This document shows, piece by piece, positions 3,982 through 42,774 of a stretch of DNA of 64,000 nucleotides. Under the pieces are notes generated by a model, which was given only the letters and a program-made list of their open reading frames with translations, was not told the DNA's origin and did no database searches. The stretch is from a virus, in IMG/VR virus record IMGVR_UViG_3300023210_000013, positions 51,582 to 115,581 of that record; one strand, given 5' to 3'. How positions within the stretch are numbered: the first letter of the stretch is position 1; every line of letters starts with the position of its first letter. Made by a program: the position numbers and the translations under genes.

Positions 3982-5664
3982 TTAAGGTTGAGGTAGACAT
4001 ATTTGTTCAAGAGTTACTGTTACACCTGGTACAGGTGTGTAAGCACGCGCACATATAGTTATAACCGGTCTTACATCTGGTTCAGCACTAAATAATATAG
4101 TTTGGTCAGGAAATCCGTCACAATTAACATATTGAAATGCTGTTGATTGGTTTGCTATTCCTTCAACTCTATATTGATTACATATTTGTGGTGTTTCTGC
4201 TTGAGCTGTTTCAAAAGGAACATCATCACAATACGTTGTAAACCCATTTAAGTTTATTACAAGTTTAACTACATAACTTGTTTCAGCAGATAAGCCCGTT
4301 GCATTAAAGCTTACAACAGCACCTGGGTTATTTCTAACTTCAGTGAATGCTATTGTTTGCGGTAAAGAAACTGTCATAACATATAAACTATATGTTGCTG
4401 TTGTTCCTAAATTATTTGTAAATGCTACCGTTGCTGTTGAATCTGTTATAGAACTAACACCTATATCTGAAGGGCAATTAGATGGGCTAGATAGAGTTTT
4501 ACTAATACTGTCACTACACTGGTTAGTACCATCTGTTGCACAAAATGCAACTTGCGTTGTAAATCCTTGAAATTTATTAAGTGATGCCAAAGATACTACC
4601 ACAGGTGATCCTGATTGAGCAATACTTATATCTGTAGTAGTTGATGTAGATCCACCAATACCATCTGTTATTGTAAGAGTTGTAAAACCATTACAATCAC
4701 TATATGCTGGTGGTATGTTACATCCTGAAAAATTAAAAGAAATAGATGATGCATTTCCTGTAGCATCTGTATTAAGAGTTGCTGAATAAGCAAATGTAAT
4801 ATCATCACACCCACTTCCACAACAAGTTGTTTGTATTGATTCTATTGCAGCATACATATCACATACTATAGCCCATAAGTTACCATGAGATTGAGCAAGT
4901 GTTGATGGGTTATTAACCCAACTACCAGCTGAACCGTAAGTAGCACTACTTGATAACATTCCTGTTGATCCAGTTATACAACTTTGATTGATTGCTAAAC
5001 CTATTAAGGCAGGACTACCAACTGCATTTTCTAAATTACATAATTTAGATTCAACTTCTGATAACAAAGCTGTTACAGCCATTGATAAACCAGGATTGAT
5101 ACATTGGGATATAAGACTTCCAGATCCACCGCCTCCTGCCGGAGTACATGATCCATCTGTTAAAACACAATTTTCTAATGTAATTAATCTTGTTTCATGA
5201 TTATTAATAGTAACATTAATTAAATTAATACTATCTAATATATCACAAATTTTTCCAGCTAGATACGCTGCATATAAATCTAATCTTAAAGCTGTTATTT
5301 GTTGAACTCCTACAGTATAATATAAACATATTGGTAAATCTATAGTAGGTAAAACATACGCTGGTTTTTCAGTAGTATTACATATTTTATCAATAATTAA
5401 CTGTAAAGTATCTGAGAGTTTTTTTGGAGCTTCTTGTCCTCCAGGTAATACACATTTTAAATCAAGACCTGAAAGATCAGGTTCTCCTGCAACTGAATCT
5501 ATAATTTTACAAAGCTCTTCAGCAAGCTTTGCAATAACTTCACTTACACTGTCACCATTGCATATGTCTATACACGGTAGATCCGGACCTTGCCAGATGA
5601 CACAATTTGAAGATATGTTAGAGCACGGTGTTGTGCTTCCATTATTCGTTGGTATCATAAACAT
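3982..5664 (-). CDS. Cys-rich fibre protein with FN3-like domain
   Basis: 28 Cys; N-terminal CVIWQGPDLPC..ICNGDSVSEVIAKL motif; repeated helical units ending K(I/L)C; FN3-like ATGLSAETSYVVKL. Confidence 0.65.
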   Translation of the reverse strand: MFMIPTNNGSTTPCSNISSNCVIWQGPDLPCIDICNGDSVSEVIAKLAEELCKIIDSVAGEPDLSGLDLKCVLPGGQEAPKKLSDTLQLIIDKICNTTEKPAYVLPTIDLPICLYYTVGVQQITALRLDLYAAYLAGKICDILDSINLINVTINNHETRLITLENCVLTDGSCTPAGGGGSGSLISQCINPGLSMAVTALLSEVESKLCNLENAVGSPALIGLAINQSCITGSTGMLSSSATYGSAGSWVNNPSTLAQSHGNLWAIVCDMYAAIESIQTTCCGSGCDDITFAYSATLNTDATGNASSISFNFSGCNIPPAYSDCNGFTTLTITDGIGGSTSTTTDISIAQSGSPVVVSLASLNKFQGFTTQVAFCATDGTNQCSDSISKTLSSPSNCPSDIGVSSITDSTATVAFTNNLGTTATYSLYVMTVSLPQTIAFTEVRNNPGAVVSFNATGLSAETSYVVKLVINLNGFTTYCDDVPFETAQAETPQICNQYRVEGIANQSTAFQYVNCDGFPDQTILFSAEPDVRPVITICARAYTPVPGVTVTLEQICLPQP

Positions 5665-5788
5665 CTTATTTTAAAACCTAGTAACTTACCGGTATATAAT
5701 ATAATATACAAAAGTTTTTGCAATCAAACAAGTAGTTCAATCACTTTAAGTTATAAAATAAGATGTTATGTATATAGTATACTAATAA

Positions 5789-37018: not shown

Positions 37019-37058
37019 ATAACACGGAGATCTAATAAATCTCTGTGTTATTTTATTT
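37019..37058 (+). terminator. Terminator-like hairpin
   Basis: ATAACACGGAGA/TCTCTGTGTTAT 12-bp stem followed by a T-rich tail. Confidence 0.6.
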
Positions 37059-37299
37059 AAAACACACGTTGCACACTAAAGGTGACATCATATAACCCAT
37101 ATAAGCACACTTTAAGCAATGATATTAATTATCTTATCCATATATATAGATATAGCTATAAAGATCACTTAGGCAGAGCAAACTATTACATAGTAGTTGT
37201 TATCTCTCTCTATAGTATCTTATGTATCTCTTCTTATATGAATAGTATTATATTACCCGGAATATTACAACAGGCACATAGATATATACCTGTATAAAC

Positions 37300-37610
37300 A
37301 TGGTTGGTCTAATCCAGTGAGCTGCTGGCGTAAGAGAGAACTTACAGTAATCTAAACTCAACTAATAGAATAAGTGTAGCAAGACAAAATAAAGGCTAAG
37401 ACGTTAGTCATCCTACTGTCACTAGATGACAGCTTGTAAATGCCATGTCAGCAGGGATGCTACACTTATATCTATAACTCTTAATGGTTAACGTCAGATA
37501 CATGTATCAAATAGTTAATCAGTTATATACTTTTGTGAATTAACAGTATACCTGGAACCCATCGTGGTGTAAAGGCAGACAGGTTGGGATACCCTACAAA
37601 AGTATATTAT
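37300..37610 (+). ncRNA. Candidate structured ncRNA modules 1 and 2
   Basis: ORF-free; perfect 12-bp closing stems 37370-37381/37458-37469 and 37525-37536/37596-37607 with internal hairpins; G-U pairs fit the plus strand. Confidence 0.5.
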
Positions 37611-37654
37611 ATAATAACATCACCTAAAGCTGAAGAGCATTGTACTATCCTATT

Positions 37655-37870
37655 ATGTCAAAAGAAATAACAAGTACAATATTTATAAAAGATGCAGAGA
37701 TAGATAAGTTTGTATTATCTATTGGAGGTAGTATAAGAACCACACCATTTAAAACATATAAACCACCTGTTGGGTTATCATTTGATTTTAATTGGGTAAG
37801 AGATGGTGTTGAAATAGACCTATTCAAAATAATTAATCATTTAAAACTAAATCGTAATGGTAAAGACTAA
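37655..37870 (+). CDS. Hypothetical protein
   Basis: 71 aa from ATG 37655. Confidence 0.45.
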   Translation: MSKEITSTIFIKDAEIDKFVLSIGGSIRTTPFKTYKPPVGLSFDFNWVRDGVEIDLFKIINHLKLNRNGKD

Positions 37871-38057
37871 AACTATGCTATTAAGCATAACCGTATTCAT
37901 AATCACAGTAGTAATATTTAACACACTCGTATGGTATCTACAAGATACTTGGACATTCAAAGAATGCTTTGGCCATGGTGCAACAATAGGCTTCTCAGTT
38001 ATATTTGCTTGGATACCTGCTGGTATCGTAGGAAATGATTACTACAATCGTATTTAA
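37857..38057 (+). CDS. Small membrane protein (2 TM)
   Basis: Two hydrophobic segments; AATCATTTAA leader. Confidence 0.6.
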   Translation: MVKTKTMLLSITVFIITVVIFNTLVWYLQDTWTFKECFGHGATIGFSVIFAWIPAGIVGNDYYNRI

Positions 38058-38059
38058 AG

Positions 38060-38770
38060 AGAACACCCGTGAGGCTAGCGGGCGTGTTAGAGTGTCACGT
38101 AGATACACTTAAGAGGATAGCTTGTCAGCTTGGCTCTGCATATGTTAGGACTATAGGTCTGTTGTAGGTTTGACAACCCTGAACCATATGTTGATTTGCT
38201 AGTTTAACATAAACTAGAATCGTCAACCGGGGAAACGGTCAAGTAGAGGTAACCAAGCTCTACATTTTTTTAACAATATTATAAATAACTAGTCAATAAA
38301 AGCAGTAGTGGCTACCTGCAGATAAACAATGTTAAGTTGAAGGTGGAATAGTTAGACTATTCATAAGCCCATGTGTATGTAAACTGCATACAATAGACTC
38401 ATCATCGTGGCCTTGACTAGTTTTCTATTAAAGTCTAAAAGCAAAGATAACCTCACTTGTAAAACAAGGGTAGATACCATAACAATTGGTTGAGTGAGTA
38501 AAGAATCAGGGAAATAAGGTTATGCGTTAAAACCTGAATGATTGCTATAGACTAAAAATACGTGTTTAGGTAATTCTAAACTAGTGTGACACACATGAAG
38601 TGAAGTAGGTTAATTACCTATAGTGTCTAATCAACCAATGAGTATGTTGGTAGGTGTTGGTCTCACCTGATAATCAAATGACTTATTCCTAACTATGTAA
38701 AGCAATAATGTAATTCTCATAGGACAACCGTGCCAGTTGAAGTTGGATAAAATAGACTGGCTTTTTTTAC
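38060..38770 (+). ncRNA. Candidate structured ncRNA modules 3-6
   Basis: About 710 nt without an ORF; nested stems, closing helices, a pseudoknot and two terminator-like ends (38243-38271, 38732-38768). Confidence 0.55.
38732..38768 (+). terminator. Intrinsic terminator
   Basis: GCCAGT...ACTGGC followed by T7. Confidence 0.6.
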
Positions 38771-38793
38771 AAACCACTTAACAAAATCATATC

Positions 38794-38982
38794 ATGGATA
38801 AATTTACTAGAATTAGCGTACACATTGCTGCTTATTTTGTAGCATTCAATCTATTTAGAGTTGCACACCACTCATCAGGAGAAGGTAACTGGCAAATCTC
38901 TATTATGTTCTTCGTATTAGGCGTATTCACAATGTATATACCGTCAATGCTAACAGCAAAAGAAAAAAAAAATAATCACTAA
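38794..38982 (+). CDS. Small membrane protein (2 TM)
   Basis: Two hydrophobic helices and a basic tail; AACCACTTAA leader. Confidence 0.6.
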   Translation: MDKFTRISVHIAAYFVAFNLFRVAHHSSGEGNWQISIMFFVLGVFTMYIPSMLTAKEKKNNH

Positions 38983-39001
38983 CCATTTAATCATAAGAAC
39001 T

Positions 39002-39163
39002 ATGAAAACTAAATCACTTTACTTATTACTTGCATTGTTTCTGGTTACACCAGTACTACAATCATGCGGATCATCCAAACGTGGATGTAAAAAGATGAGA
39101 AAATACCGTACTTACTCATTTGGAGACAACCAACAAGAAACACAAACTTACAGATTGGGATAG
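39002..39163 (+). CDS. 53-aa lipoprotein (not in the ORF track)
   Basis: MKTKSLYLLLALFLVTPVLQS-CGSSKRGCKK...; basic n-region, hydrophobic h-region, lipobox LQSC; AACCATTTAA leader. Confidence 0.7.
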   Translation: MKTKSLYLLLALFLVTPVLQSCGSSKRGCKKMRKYRTYSFGDNQQETQTYRLG

Positions 39164-39209
39164 ATAGACTATCCCTTTTACATTTATCAACCACTTAATC
39201 TTATCAATC

Positions 39210-39494
39210 ATGAGAATACACATTAAAGAACCAAGCAGATTTGCTATGCTCAATGGAAACATTGTGCTTACACACTTTCAAGACACACACAATACTATCA
39301 TACGTAACAGTGATGGAGATATACAACGTGTTAAGAATGAAAAATTAGAAGGCTTAACTTTAGAAGAGTTAAATGAAGGCCTATTAGAGAACATATCGTT
39401 ACGTGAAGTAGCTGCAATAGAAGAATACATTGTAGTTGGTGATCATAATAATGATGATGAATCATACATGGCTTACGTCACATCTTATTCTTAA
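39210..39494 (+). CDS. Hypothetical protein
   Basis: 94 aa; AACCACTTAA leader. Confidence 0.6.
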   Translation: MRIHIKEPSRFAMLNGNIVLTHFQDTHNTIIRNSDGDIQRVKNEKLEGLTLEELNEGLLENISLREVAAIEEYIVVGDHNNDDESYMAYVTSYS

Positions 39495-39520
39495 CCAATT
39501 AATATCTTAATATACACTTT

Positions 39521-39646
39521 ATGAAAAATTTAAAAATCAAATTTGGCTACGCTGAATTCATTGGGCTTGGAATAGCTTGGCAGTATGATAGAGCAGCTAT
39601 CATAATACCTTTTCTTATGATTGAAATCATATGGAAAAAGAGATAA
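39521..39646 (+). CDS. 41-aa hydrophobic micro-protein (not in the ORF track)
   Basis: MKNLKIKFGYAEFIGLGIAWQYDRAAIIIPFLMIEIIWKKR*. Confidence 0.55.
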   Translation: MKNLKIKFGYAEFIGLGIAWQYDRAAIIIPFLMIEIIWKKR

Positions 39647-39676
39647 TAACTATCAGACTTAAAAACAAACACGCAC

Positions 39677-39822
39677 TATAGATCGTACTAACAATACCAG
39701 TACTTCTATATCTTATATAATGATCTTACTACTGTGGGATCATAAATGTTAAACATGGTGATGTATGTTTAAGTGGTGAATGGATCTTACCTGGGAATTC
39801 CTGGGTAAGGTTGCATTCTTTT
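39677..39822 (+). ncRNA. Four tandem hairpins, candidate structured RNA or leader (module 7)
   Basis: Hairpins at 39677-39710, 39720-39743, 39749-39772 and 39778-39818, then TTTT; several G-U pairs. Confidence 0.45.
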
Positions 39823-39834
39823 ATAAAAGAAATT

Positions 39835-42373: not shown

Positions 42374-42774
42374 TGAAGACAAAAAAGAAAATATGTAACA
42401 ATTGCAATACTGAGCAGTTCATTTGGAAAAATGATAAAGGCAGCCGGTATTGCAAAAGTTGCTGGTATAGATCAATGGAAACTAAAAAACCATTGAAAGC
42501 TAGAAAACCTTTGAATCCAAAATCAAAGAGAATGCAAACCACAGATTTAGCGTATAGTAAATTACGCAAGAAATTTATGGAACAGAAACCAATGTGTGAA
42601 GCAGCACTTCCTGTATGTAATGGGCCATCAACTGATGTTCATCACAAAAAAGGACGTGGTAAATATCACCTTAAAGTAAGTACTTGGTTATCTGTATGTA
42701 GACAGTGTCACACATGGATAGAAGAACATCCTCATGAAGCAAAAGAATTAGGATTTTCTGAATCAAGACATTAA
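42373..42774 (+). CDS. Zn-finger/HNH-type endonuclease
   Basis: CxxC..CxxC N-terminus; C...DVHHKKGR...VCRQCHTWIEEHP. Confidence 0.7.
   Translation: MKTKKKICNNCNTEQFIWKNDKGSRYCKSCWYRSMETKKPLKARKPLNPKSKRMQTTDLAYSKLRKKFMEQKPMCEAALPVCNGPSTDVHHKKGRGKYHLKVSTWLSVCRQCHTWIEEHPHEAKELGFSESRH

What the first reader, a model, noticed from the sequence alone, without database searches (positions are those of the whole stretch)
37300..39822. Array of structured, non-repetitive ncRNA-like modules at the start of the early arm
Seen: intergenic gaps elsewhere are mostly under 200 nt, but about 1.2 kb here (37300-37650, 38060-38790, 39650-39830) has no credible ORF and is packed with complementary segments. 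Four modules share one architecture: a long closing helix (37370-81/37458-69; 37525-36/37596-607; 38287-96/38413-22; 38432-44/38542-53), an A-rich linker, then inner hairpins. The modules differ in sequence, so this is not a CRISPR or tandem repeat. G-U pairs fit the plus strand, pointing to RNA rather than DNA structure. The modules are interleaved with small membrane and lipoprotein genes and follow two paralogous small proteins. I do not recognise a known RNA family. Inference: a polycistronic phage small-RNA cassette expressed right after entry, for example decoys against host RNA-based defence (CRISPR, type III toxin-antitoxin, retrons), processed RNAs, or partners of the neighbouring proteins. 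This is my best candidate for an undescribed system.
Basis: partly seen in the sequence, partly recalled or inferred. Interest (0 to 1): 0.85.

Follow-up and report, generated by a model that had tools for sequence, protein, structure and literature searches.

The report
Swappable folded-RNA cassettes, crAss-like phage
The gene-free stretches at the head of this marine crAss-like phage's early arm hold a string of separately folding non-coding RNA units that closely related strains gain, lose and reorder as whole cassettes; they are a further, unusually modular example of the unexplained early non-coding RNAs already reported for the crAss-like phage phi14:2.

Summary
The genome (115.6 kb, marine crAss-like phage) has only seven ORF-free gaps of 250 nt or more; the two largest (650 and 736 nt) lie here. 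All four closing helices exist, and 3 of the window's 10 perfect long-range helices of 10 bp or more fall in 2.4% of its length. No alternative code, tRNA, tmRNA, Rfam family or decayed ORF explains the gaps.

The best-supported elements are two terminator-ended RNAs: E0 (38058-38271) and E5 (38555-38768). Both show compensatory changes and a clear plus-strand folding advantage. M1 is 98% conserved. M2 and M4 have no comparative support.

New here: in three near-identical Tara strains the breakpoints fall at module borders. M2, M3 and M4 are present, absent, replaced or relocated as units.

Expression could not be tested. Function is unknown; anti-defence is speculation. The closest precedent is the abundant early intergenic RNAs of phi14:2, which share no sequence with these. 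This scan has reported similar RNA islands in other crAss-like phages. Interest is moderate.

The parts
37019..37051 (+). Intrinsic terminator closing the second paralogue gene
   Evidence: 13-bp stem followed by a T-rich tail
37060..37360 (+). Conserved non-coding leader or promoter-like block that precedes the first module
   Evidence: Short collinear conserved islands are shared with L002/L003, L005, L008, L011 and L012. The tblastx match to L005 is in a frame with stops, so the conservation is at nucleotide level, not coding.
37370..37469 (+). M1: stem-closed module, kept in all close strains
   Evidence: The closing helix is 12/12 perfect. The fold is a 4-way junction with z -3.3. Only 2 of 100 positions vary among W, L017, L018 and L024, both in unpaired stretches, and the strains diverge about 10 nt after the helix.
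37514..37618 (+). M2: stem-closed module, strain-specific
   Evidence: The core helix is 12/12 perfect and extends to 23 nt at 78%. Its z-score is only -1.3. In L024 and L018 it is absent and a small ORF takes its place. There is no homologue, so no test of selection was possible.
37655..37870 (+). Strain-specific 71-aa mini-ORF
   Evidence: ORF list. L024 and L018 carry other ORFs at this place.
37857..38057 (+). Conserved 66-aa membrane-protein gene
   Evidence: Homologues occur in L003, L005, L011, L012, L018 and L024.
38058..38271 (+). E0: structured RNA ending in an intrinsic terminator (stem 38243-38263, T-run 38265-38271)
   Evidence: In a 3-strain alignment, 8 of 69 pairs change on both sides, against 2.6+-1.3 in shuffles (0/500) and 0-1 in slid controls. 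The consensus fold is -50.5 kcal/mol on the plus strand and -39.9 on the minus strand. Its 3' domain recurs in the unrelated phage contig L026, where the terminator stem covaries and the loop is conserved.
38280..38429 (+). M3: stem-closed module, mobile between strains
   Evidence: The closing helix is 10/10 perfect. L018 carries it at 90% identity, but directly after the membrane gene and before its E0. Of about 13 differences, 5 fall in predicted pairs and all 5 keep pairing by a switch between G-U and Watson-Crick on the plus strand. One 1-nt indel rules out coding.
38432..38553 (+). M4: stem-closed module, strain-specific
   Evidence: The closing helix is imperfect (6+5 bp). The plus strand folds at -26.5 kcal/mol (z -2.8) and the minus strand at -20.9 (z -1.9). 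M3 and M4 together are replaced in L024 and L018 by an unrelated 147-nt structured cassette (plus z -3.35, minus z -0.66).
38555..38768 (+). E5: structured RNA with constant 5' and 3' parts, a variable centre, and a terminator (38732-38768)
   Evidence: It is 84% identical to L012 8767-8996, above the roughly 68% seen in flanking coding DNA. Compensatory pairs separate W from L012, and the centre is replaced in L024. The consensus fold is -41.6 kcal/mol on the plus strand and -32.7 on the minus strand.
38794..39646 (+). Four mini-genes (62-aa membrane protein, 53-aa lipoprotein, 94 aa, 41 aa), each preceded by a 10-nt start motif
   Evidence: ORFs. The motif AACCAYTTAA sits 21-28 nt before each ATG. 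A terminator lies at 39157-39175.
39647..39825 (+). N3: 3' untranslated stretch with two hairpins and a strong terminator (39783-39812)
   Evidence: 13-bp terminator stem. 39650-39790 folds with z -3.2 on the plus strand. No diverged homologue was found, so selection is untested.

Best explanation
The gaps encode non-coding RNA on the plus strand, built as a chain of independently folding domains.

Proposed transcription units (inferred from terminators):
- Unit 1 runs from the conserved leader (about 37.06 kb) through M1, M2 and two mini-genes. It ends in the structured E0 domain and its terminator at 38.27 kb.
- Unit 2 (38.28-38.77 kb) is purely non-coding. It consists of M3, M4 and E5 with its terminator.

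Role of the closing helices (inferred). Each closing helix insulates the fold of its unit. A unit can therefore be inserted, deleted or moved by recombination at its borders without misfolding its neighbours. That would explain why near-identical strains differ by whole modules.

Fate and function (inferred). By analogy with phi14:2, the RNAs would be made immediately after infection and accumulate as stable species, possibly after cleavage in the closing stems. M1, E0 and E5 are kept in the close strains; M2-M4 come and go. That split, and the constant scaffold with a variable centre in E5, suggest trans-acting RNAs aimed at strain-variable host factors, acting as sponges or decoys.

Shown: the stretch is non-coding; the helices exist; E0, E5 and M3 are under structural selection; the plus strand is favoured; strains swap whole cassettes. 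Inferred: transcription units, processing, accumulation and any trans-acting role.
For: The stretch is non-coding:
- There is no ORF under four genetic codes.
- Strains differ by indels that are not multiples of three.
- Translated searches find no decayed genes.
- The 10-nt start motif that precedes every neighbouring mini-ORF is absent before the modules.

The structure is under selection:
- E0 has 8 pairs changed on both sides, against 2.6+-1.3 in shuffles (0/500).
- E5 has compensatory pairs between the window and L012.
- In M3, all 5 changes that fall in pairs keep pairing by plus-strand wobble.

The plus strand is favoured:
- Consensus folds are about 10 kcal/mol better on the plus strand for E0 and E5.
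- M4 and the alternative cassette in L024 fold far better on the plus strand.
- All terminators in the region point rightward.

The units behave as cassettes:
- Breakpoints among the window, L017/L024 and L018 fall at 37485, 37833, 38278-38280, 38429 and 38559. All but 37833, which lies at the 5' edge of the membrane gene, are module borders.
- M3 is relocated in L018.

The pattern recurs in relatives:
- L012 and L005 share stem-closed modules with 8 compensatory pairs.
- L002/L003 carries five tandem copies of one scaffold with a variable insert.
- The E0 3' domain occurs in a phage with no detectable protein similarity to this one.

Precedent: in phi14:2, long intergenic regions at the head of the rightward early arm are transcribed above most genes and persist late in infection.
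Against: - There are no expression data for this phage.
- M2 and M4 have no homologue, and M2 folds no better than shuffles (z -1.3).
- M1-M3 fold equally well on the minus strand.
- Sliding-window folding energies in the gaps are no better than in coding flanks.
- The alignments hold only 2-4 sequences, partly near-identical, so the covariation statistics are thin.
- No antisense target in the phage genome stands out above chance.
- There is no sequence or model similarity to the phi14:2 RNAs.
Confidence: 0.55

Rival explanations
1. The elements act only in cis on the early mRNAs. They would be structured leaders and 3' untranslated regions that stabilise transcripts, mark processing sites (as the RNase III sites do between T7 early genes), or tune termination and read-through. 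On this reading there is no free-standing RNA product with its own function.
For: - E0 directly follows the membrane gene and ends in a terminator. N3 does the same after the 41-aa ORF.
- M1 and M2 lie between the conserved leader and the first ORFs.
- Five rightward terminators within 2.8 kb imply that read-through needs regulating.
- Closing helices extend to 15-28 nt imperfect duplexes, a plausible double-strand nuclease substrate.
Against: - Unit 2 (M3, M4, E5; about 490 nt) contains no ORF at all.
- M3 works in two different positions relative to genes.
- The E0 3' domain is shared with a phage that has unrelated neighbouring genes.
- The proposed antiterminator alternative fold in E0 is not conserved in L018, while the competing local hairpin covaries.
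Confidence: 0.2
2. The inverted repeats act at DNA level. They could be recombination junctions for cassette exchange (like the promoter-stem-loop PeSL motifs of T4-type phages), an origin of replication, or single-strand hairpin signals for the virion RNA polymerase.
For: - Strain breakpoints coincide with module borders.
- The closing helices are perfect Watson-Crick duplexes, and M1-M3 fold equally well on both strands.
- The cumulative GC-skew minimum and the strand switch lie at 36-38 kb.
- Replication-initiator-like genes lie nearby.
- The phi14:2 virion polymerase transcribes single-stranded or denatured DNA in vitro.
Against: - No shared junction motif flanks the RNA modules, whereas PeSLs are one repeated conserved motif.
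- Arms separated by 60-120 nt extrude poorly as cruciforms (general knowledge).
- E0, E5, M4 and the L024 cassette show plus-strand folding advantages and G-U-mediated substitutions. These would be A-C mismatches on the other strand.
- No iterons were found.
Confidence: 0.1
3. Part of the array (M2, M4 and perhaps N3) is neutral filler. It would be debris of illegitimate recombination in a hyperplastic region, with hairpins that owe nothing to selection.
For: - M2 and M4 are missing from near-identical strains with no visible replacement of function.
- M2 has z -1.3.
- The gaps show no overall thermodynamic excess.
- Related phages fill the same region with small ORFs and short gaps.
Against: - Perfect 12-bp long-range helices are about 12-fold enriched here.
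- Phage genomes are under strong pressure against filler; only 7 gaps of 250 nt or more exist in 115 kb.
- Every module that has a diverged homologue shows structure-preserving change.
Confidence: 0.1

Closest known systems
Early intergenic 'long non-coding RNAs' of crAss-like Cellulophaga phage phi14:2 (g004-g005 and g005-g006 junctions; Drobysheva et al., bioRxiv 10.1101/2020.03.07.982082)
   Same: Both are long ORF-free stretches among the first genes of the rightward replication (early) arm of a marine crAss-like phage. Both are oriented rightward, and function is unknown in both.
   Different: - No sequence similarity was found, and the E0 model does not hit phi14:2.
- One phi14:2 region is a tmRNA gene (L015 4031-4500), whereas this genome has no tmRNA.
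- Expression is shown for phi14:2 and not here.
- Strain-level cassette swapping is shown here and not reported there.
PeSL mobile regulatory cassettes of T4-type phages (Arbiol et al. 2010, PMC2839356)
   Same: Both involve a hyperplastic early region in which closely related phages differ by insertion, deletion and replacement of small units at defined junctions.
   Different: PeSLs are one repeated promoter plus stem-loop motif that flanks protein genes and acts through DNA homology. Here the swapped units are themselves non-coding folds with unrelated sequences, and no common flanking motif was found.
RNase III processing hairpins between T7 early genes (textbook knowledge; not tested here)
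   Same: Both are irregular helices placed between short early genes in a polycistronic early transcript.
   Different: The T7 sites are single hairpins of about 50-60 nt. Here the helices close 80-135 nt multibranch domains. Cleavage is untested.
Stem-closed RNA modules in relatives of this phage (L012 8588-8760 and L005 8644-8822; tandem scaffold family in L002 6948-8822)
   Same: They occupy the same genomic position and share the design of a closing helix around inner hairpins. They show compensatory changes.
   Different: They are different sequence families. None is detectable in the window.

Membership tests
phi14:2-type early intergenic non-coding RNAs of crAss-like phages | Long intergenic region among the first genes of the rightward replication/early arm of a crAss-like phage | tested here: met
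   Crass_capsid hit on the minus arm. The plus arm carries UDG, DnaB, primase and initiator-like genes. The two largest gaps of the genome lie here.
phi14:2-type early intergenic non-coding RNAs of crAss-like phages | Rightward transcription at high level from the earliest time point, persisting late | not testable with these tools
Only the terminator orientation and plus-strand fold asymmetry speak for rightward transcription.
phi14:2-type early intergenic non-coding RNAs of crAss-like phages | Sequence or structure homology to the phi14:2 RNAs | tested here: not met
   blastn gives noise only. Model R1 has no hit in L015.
Any Rfam 15 family (riboswitches, ribozymes, sRNAs, ToxI, 6S, Y-RNA-like and others) | Covariance-model match at gathering score, or at least a suggestive E-value | tested here: not met
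There are 0 hits at gathering score in 64 kb. Relatives also give nothing except tRNAs.
tRNA / tmRNA | Cloverleaf or tmRNA fold detectable by ARAGORN or Rfam | tested here: not met
   No genes in the window or in the whole genome.
Intrinsic terminators | GC-containing hairpin followed directly by a T-run | tested here: met
   This holds for the 3' ends of E0 (38243-38271), E5 (38732-38768) and N3 (39783-39812). It does not hold for the closing helices of M1, M2 and M4. M3's helix is followed by a T-rich stretch, but it encloses 116 nt.
CRISPR array or tandem repeat | Regularly spaced direct repeats | tested here: not met
   Only four short two-copy direct repeats were found.
Retron msr/msd RNA | Inverted repeats flanking the RNA, next to a reverse transcriptase | tested here: not met
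   No RVT_1 match in the genome.
PeSL-type mobile regulatory cassettes | One conserved promoter plus stem-loop motif repeated at cassette junctions | tested here: inconclusive
   Breakpoints lie at module borders, but no shared motif flanks the RNA modules. A 10-nt motif does precede each mini-ORF.

The most novel reading that the evidence does not exclude
The array is an RNA counterpart of a phage anti-defence gene island. It would be a recombining library of self-insulated, stem-closed RNA cassettes made first after DNA entry, each of which titrates or mimics a different strain-variable host RNA-binding defence or regulatory factor. Core units (M1, E0, E5) would be kept and accessory units (M2-M4 and the L024 cassette) exchanged between co-circulating strains.
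Probability: 0.15. Interest if true: 0.8.

Novelty: new variant of a known kind. Interest (0 to 1): 0.5.

Why it matters
CrAss-like phages are among the most abundant phages known, and what their first transcripts do is still open. The one cultured model showed that unexplained non-coding RNAs dominate early transcription.

This locus shows that such RNA islands are modular. Units with unrelated sequences but the same stem-closed design are exchanged between strains that are otherwise 95% or more identical. One RNA domain is shared with a phage that has no detectable protein similarity to this one.

That pattern is what is seen for accessory, host-interaction genes. If the RNAs act in trans, this would point to RNA-based host takeover or counter-defence in this phage order. 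It also gives defined, small units (100-220 nt) that can be tested one at a time.

Tried and rejected
**Explanations tested and rejected**
- Alternative genetic codes (TGA=W, TAG=Q, TAA=Q) do not open the gaps.
- Rfam at gathering score and at a permissive threshold gives nothing for the window or the relatives.
- ARAGORN finds nothing in the window or the genome.
- tblastx of the gaps against all loci shows no decayed ORFs. The one weak L005 hit is in a frame with stops.
- No reverse transcriptase is present.

**Searches that found nothing**
- blastn of the region against GenBank phages gives no match.
- Similarity to the phi14:2 intergenic regions is noise only.
- The repeated scaffold motif of L002 is absent from the window.
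- Antisense targets of the modules in the phage genome are no more frequent than in shuffles (50 against 47). A 16-nt match lies in the same sense inside a coding gene.
- The Bacteroidetes -7 promoter motif is not enriched. The sigma-70 scan gives fewer hits than shuffles.
- Sliding-window folding z-scores show no enrichment in the gaps.
- Pattern scans for the E0 3' domain gave chance hits in coding DNA of unrelated GC-rich phages and of bacteria (L025, L027, L028, L029; L030 was not read). L026 alone is a real relative.
- L020-L023 share only a fused C-terminal domain and were of no use.

**Steps that failed or were unavailable**
- AlphaFold of the upstream paralogue protein failed (pLDDT 38), so there was no fold search. 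Pfam and PHROGs find nothing for it.
Full report
**Context.** The window is bases 51582-115581 of a 115,581-bp IMG/VR virus record that CheckV rates complete. GC content is about 31%. Genes run leftward up to about 35.9 kb and rightward from about 36.0 kb. The leftward arm carries a Crassvirus-type major capsid protein. The rightward arm carries UDG, a DnaA-type HTH protein, DnaB helicase, primase and an initiator-like winged-helix protein. This is therefore a marine crAss-like phage, and the finding lies at the head of its replication module. In the cultured crAss-like phage phi14:2 the replication module is the early, rightward class, transcribed by the injected virion RNA polymerase.

- The three stretches have no credible ORF under table 11 or with any single stop codon reassigned.
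- A crude gene call over the whole genome leaves only seven gaps of 250 nt or more. The two largest (650 and 736 nt) are the ones described.
- All four closing helices are present. Three are perfect (12, 12 and 10 bp) and the fourth is a 6+5-bp interrupted helix.
- Perfect helices of 10 bp or more closing loops of 30-160 nt occur ten times in 64 kb. Three lie in the 1.56 kb of gaps, about a 12-fold excess.
- No tRNA, tmRNA, Rfam family, direct-repeat array or reverse transcriptase is present.

Thermodynamics alone is weak. Module z-scores run from -1.3 to -3.3 and are similar on both strands. Arbitrarily placed 120-nt windows in the gaps fold no better than flanking coding DNA. Had I only folding energies, I would call this unproven.

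**Comparative evidence.** A profile of the two upstream paralogues retrieved relatives from IMG/VR (L003-L014) and metagenomes (L017-L024). The interval between the second paralogue and the next conserved block varies from 2.3 to 6.6 kb. In some relatives it is filled with mini-ORFs; in others (the window, L003, L012) it holds large ORF-free stretches. Three Tara contigs (L017, L018, L024) are strains of the same phage, 94-97% identical in the flanks. They are the key.

The colinear blocks between these strains and the window end at 37485, 37833, 38278-38280, 38429 and 38559. All but 37833, which lies at the 5' edge of the membrane gene, are borders of the folded units.
- L024 and L018 keep M1 but have a small ORF in place of M2 and the 71-aa ORF.
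- L024 and L018 have an unrelated 147-nt structured segment in place of M3 plus M4.
- L018 carries M3 (90% identical) at a different place: directly after the membrane gene and before its own E0.

The units therefore behave as discrete cassettes.

**Which units show selection on structure?**
- *E0 (38058-38271).* It follows the membrane gene and ends in a terminator. Aligned across three strains, 8 of 69 consensus pairs change on both sides and stay paired. Column shuffles give 2.6+-1.3 (0 of 500 reach 8), and structures slid by 1-3 columns give 0-1. One hairpin alone carries four compensatory pairs around a conserved loop.
- *E5 (38555-38768).* It is 84% identical to L012, although flanking coding DNA is about 68% identical. 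It shows compensatory pairs between the two. Its centre is replaced in L024, while the 5' and 3' parts and the terminator stay constant.
- *M3.* The window and L018 differ at about 13 positions. Five lie in predicted pairs, and all five keep pairing through switches between G-U and Watson-Crick that work only on the plus strand. None breaks a pair. A 1-nt indel excludes coding.
- *M1.* Only 2 of 100 positions vary, both unpaired. This shows conservation but cannot show covariation.
- *M2, M4 and N3.* No diverged homologue was found, so these remain untested.

**Strand.** Consensus folds of E0 and E5 are about 10 kcal/mol more stable on the plus strand and use about twice as many G-U pairs there. 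M4, the 5' half of E5 and the alternative L024 cassette also fold much better on the plus strand; the L024 cassette has z -3.35 against -0.66. All terminators in the region point rightward. M1-M3 show no energy asymmetry.

**Wider distribution.**
- A covariance model of the E0 3' domain finds it only in the window's lineage and in L026. It consists of a short helix enclosing a variable hairpin, a 4-bp hairpin with a purine-rich hexaloop, and a terminator with a conserved 9-nt loop. L026 has 41% GC and shares no protein similarity with this genome in the 4.5 kb fetched. There the terminator stem covaries at three pairs while the loop is conserved. The domain ends a roughly 700-nt ORF-poor stretch that also holds a stem-closed module closed by a 12-bp perfect helix (15 bp by eye).
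- Relatives L012/L011 and L005 share two other stem-closed modules with eight compensatory pairs.
- L002/L003 carries five tandem copies of one scaffold whose apical stem holds a variable insert.
- None of these families is detectable in the window.

The common denominator is a design and a location, not a sequence family.

**Precedent.** Drobysheva et al. report that two long intergenic regions of phi14:2 (g004-g005 and g005-g006) are transcribed rightward above the level of most genes from the earliest time point and do not decline. They leave the function open. I fetched that region (L015). One of the two is a tmRNA gene by ARAGORN and scores 46 bits in Rfam, just under the cut-off of 47. 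The other has no match. The window's RNAs share no similarity with either. This scan has logged comparable RNA islands in other crAss-like phages. I reached the phi14:2 precedent before reading those notes.

**Mechanism.** What is shown:
- non-coding DNA;
- real helices;
- structural selection in E0, E5 and M3;
- plus-strand preference;
- cassette-wise exchange.

What I infer:
- Two rightward units are delimited by terminators (leader-M1-M2-ORFs-E0, and M3-M4-E5).
- The closing helices act as folding insulators, and perhaps as processing stems.
- The products accumulate as stable early RNAs.
- Their function is in trans and host-directed, given the core/accessory split and the constant-scaffold/variable-centre layout of E5.

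I put 0.55 on 'plus-strand structured RNA cassettes with a function of their own'. I put 0.2 on purely cis-acting mRNA elements, 0.1 on DNA-level elements and 0.1 on part of the array being filler. A specific anti-defence decoy role has no direct support (0.15).

**Limits.**
- The alignments have 2-4 rows.
- The structure of the upstream paralogue protein could not be predicted, so a protein partner remains an open idea.

**Verdict.** This is a real, modular array of structured non-coding RNA units from undescribed families. It is a new variant of the early non-coding RNA islands already known from phi14:2. Interest is moderate (0.5), mainly for the strain-level cassette exchange and the RNA domain shared across unrelated phages.

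Noticed in passing
L015 (NC_021806, phi14:2) 4031-4500: One of the two published 'long non-coding RNAs' of phi14:2 (g005-g006 junction) is a tmRNA gene. ARAGORN calls it with a tag peptide, and Rfam tmRNA scores 46 bits against a cut-off of 47. A T-arm-like segment also lies at 1806-1843.
   Followed up: partly
L002 6948-8822 (same contig as L003): Five tandem copies of one RNA scaffold. Each has a constant 5' hairpin with a conserved 9-nt loop and a covarying stem, then a 9-12 bp stem that carries a variable insert of 20-110 nt, then a constant 3' tail. The last copy ends in a terminator. There is no Rfam match.
   Followed up: partly
window 37835, 38772, 38981, 39189, 39493 (also 36705, 41838): The 10-nt motif AACCAYTTAA lies 21-28 nt upstream of the ATG of each early mini-gene. 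Three of the window's five exact copies are here. At 38772 it sits only 4 nt after the E5 terminator. It could therefore be a compact early promoter or a translation-start element.
   Followed up: partly
L012 8588-8760, L011 8590-8650, L005 8644-8822: Two conserved stem-closed RNA modules are shared by more distant relatives. Closing stems and inner hairpins covary (8 both-sided changes in 29 pairs). They are absent from the window.
   Followed up: partly
window 37060-37360: A conserved non-coding block follows the paralogue terminator. Short collinear islands are shared by all relatives. In L005 its 3' part continues into the start of the membrane-protein ORF. It is a candidate early promoter or leader.
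   Followed up: partly
window 5660-5767 (minus strand): A 14-bp perfect helix closes a roughly 80-nt loop between two leftward late genes. It ends just before the ATG at 5664. It is the only other perfect long-range helix of 11 bp or more in the window.
   Followed up: no
window 42402-42455: A 9-bp stem with a 36-nt loop lies right after the 170-aa gene. The same stem sequence occurs at the matching place in L005, L008, L011 and L024.
   Followed up: no
L005 13853-14096; L011 13060-13362: Relatives carry a cluster of three tRNA genes a few kb downstream in the early arm. This genome has no tRNA at all.
   Followed up: no
L026 1300-1985: An unrelated 41%-GC phage contig holds a roughly 700-nt ORF-poor stretch. 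It contains a stem-closed module closed by a 12-bp perfect helix (15 bp by eye) and ends in the same 3' domain as E0.
   Followed up: partly
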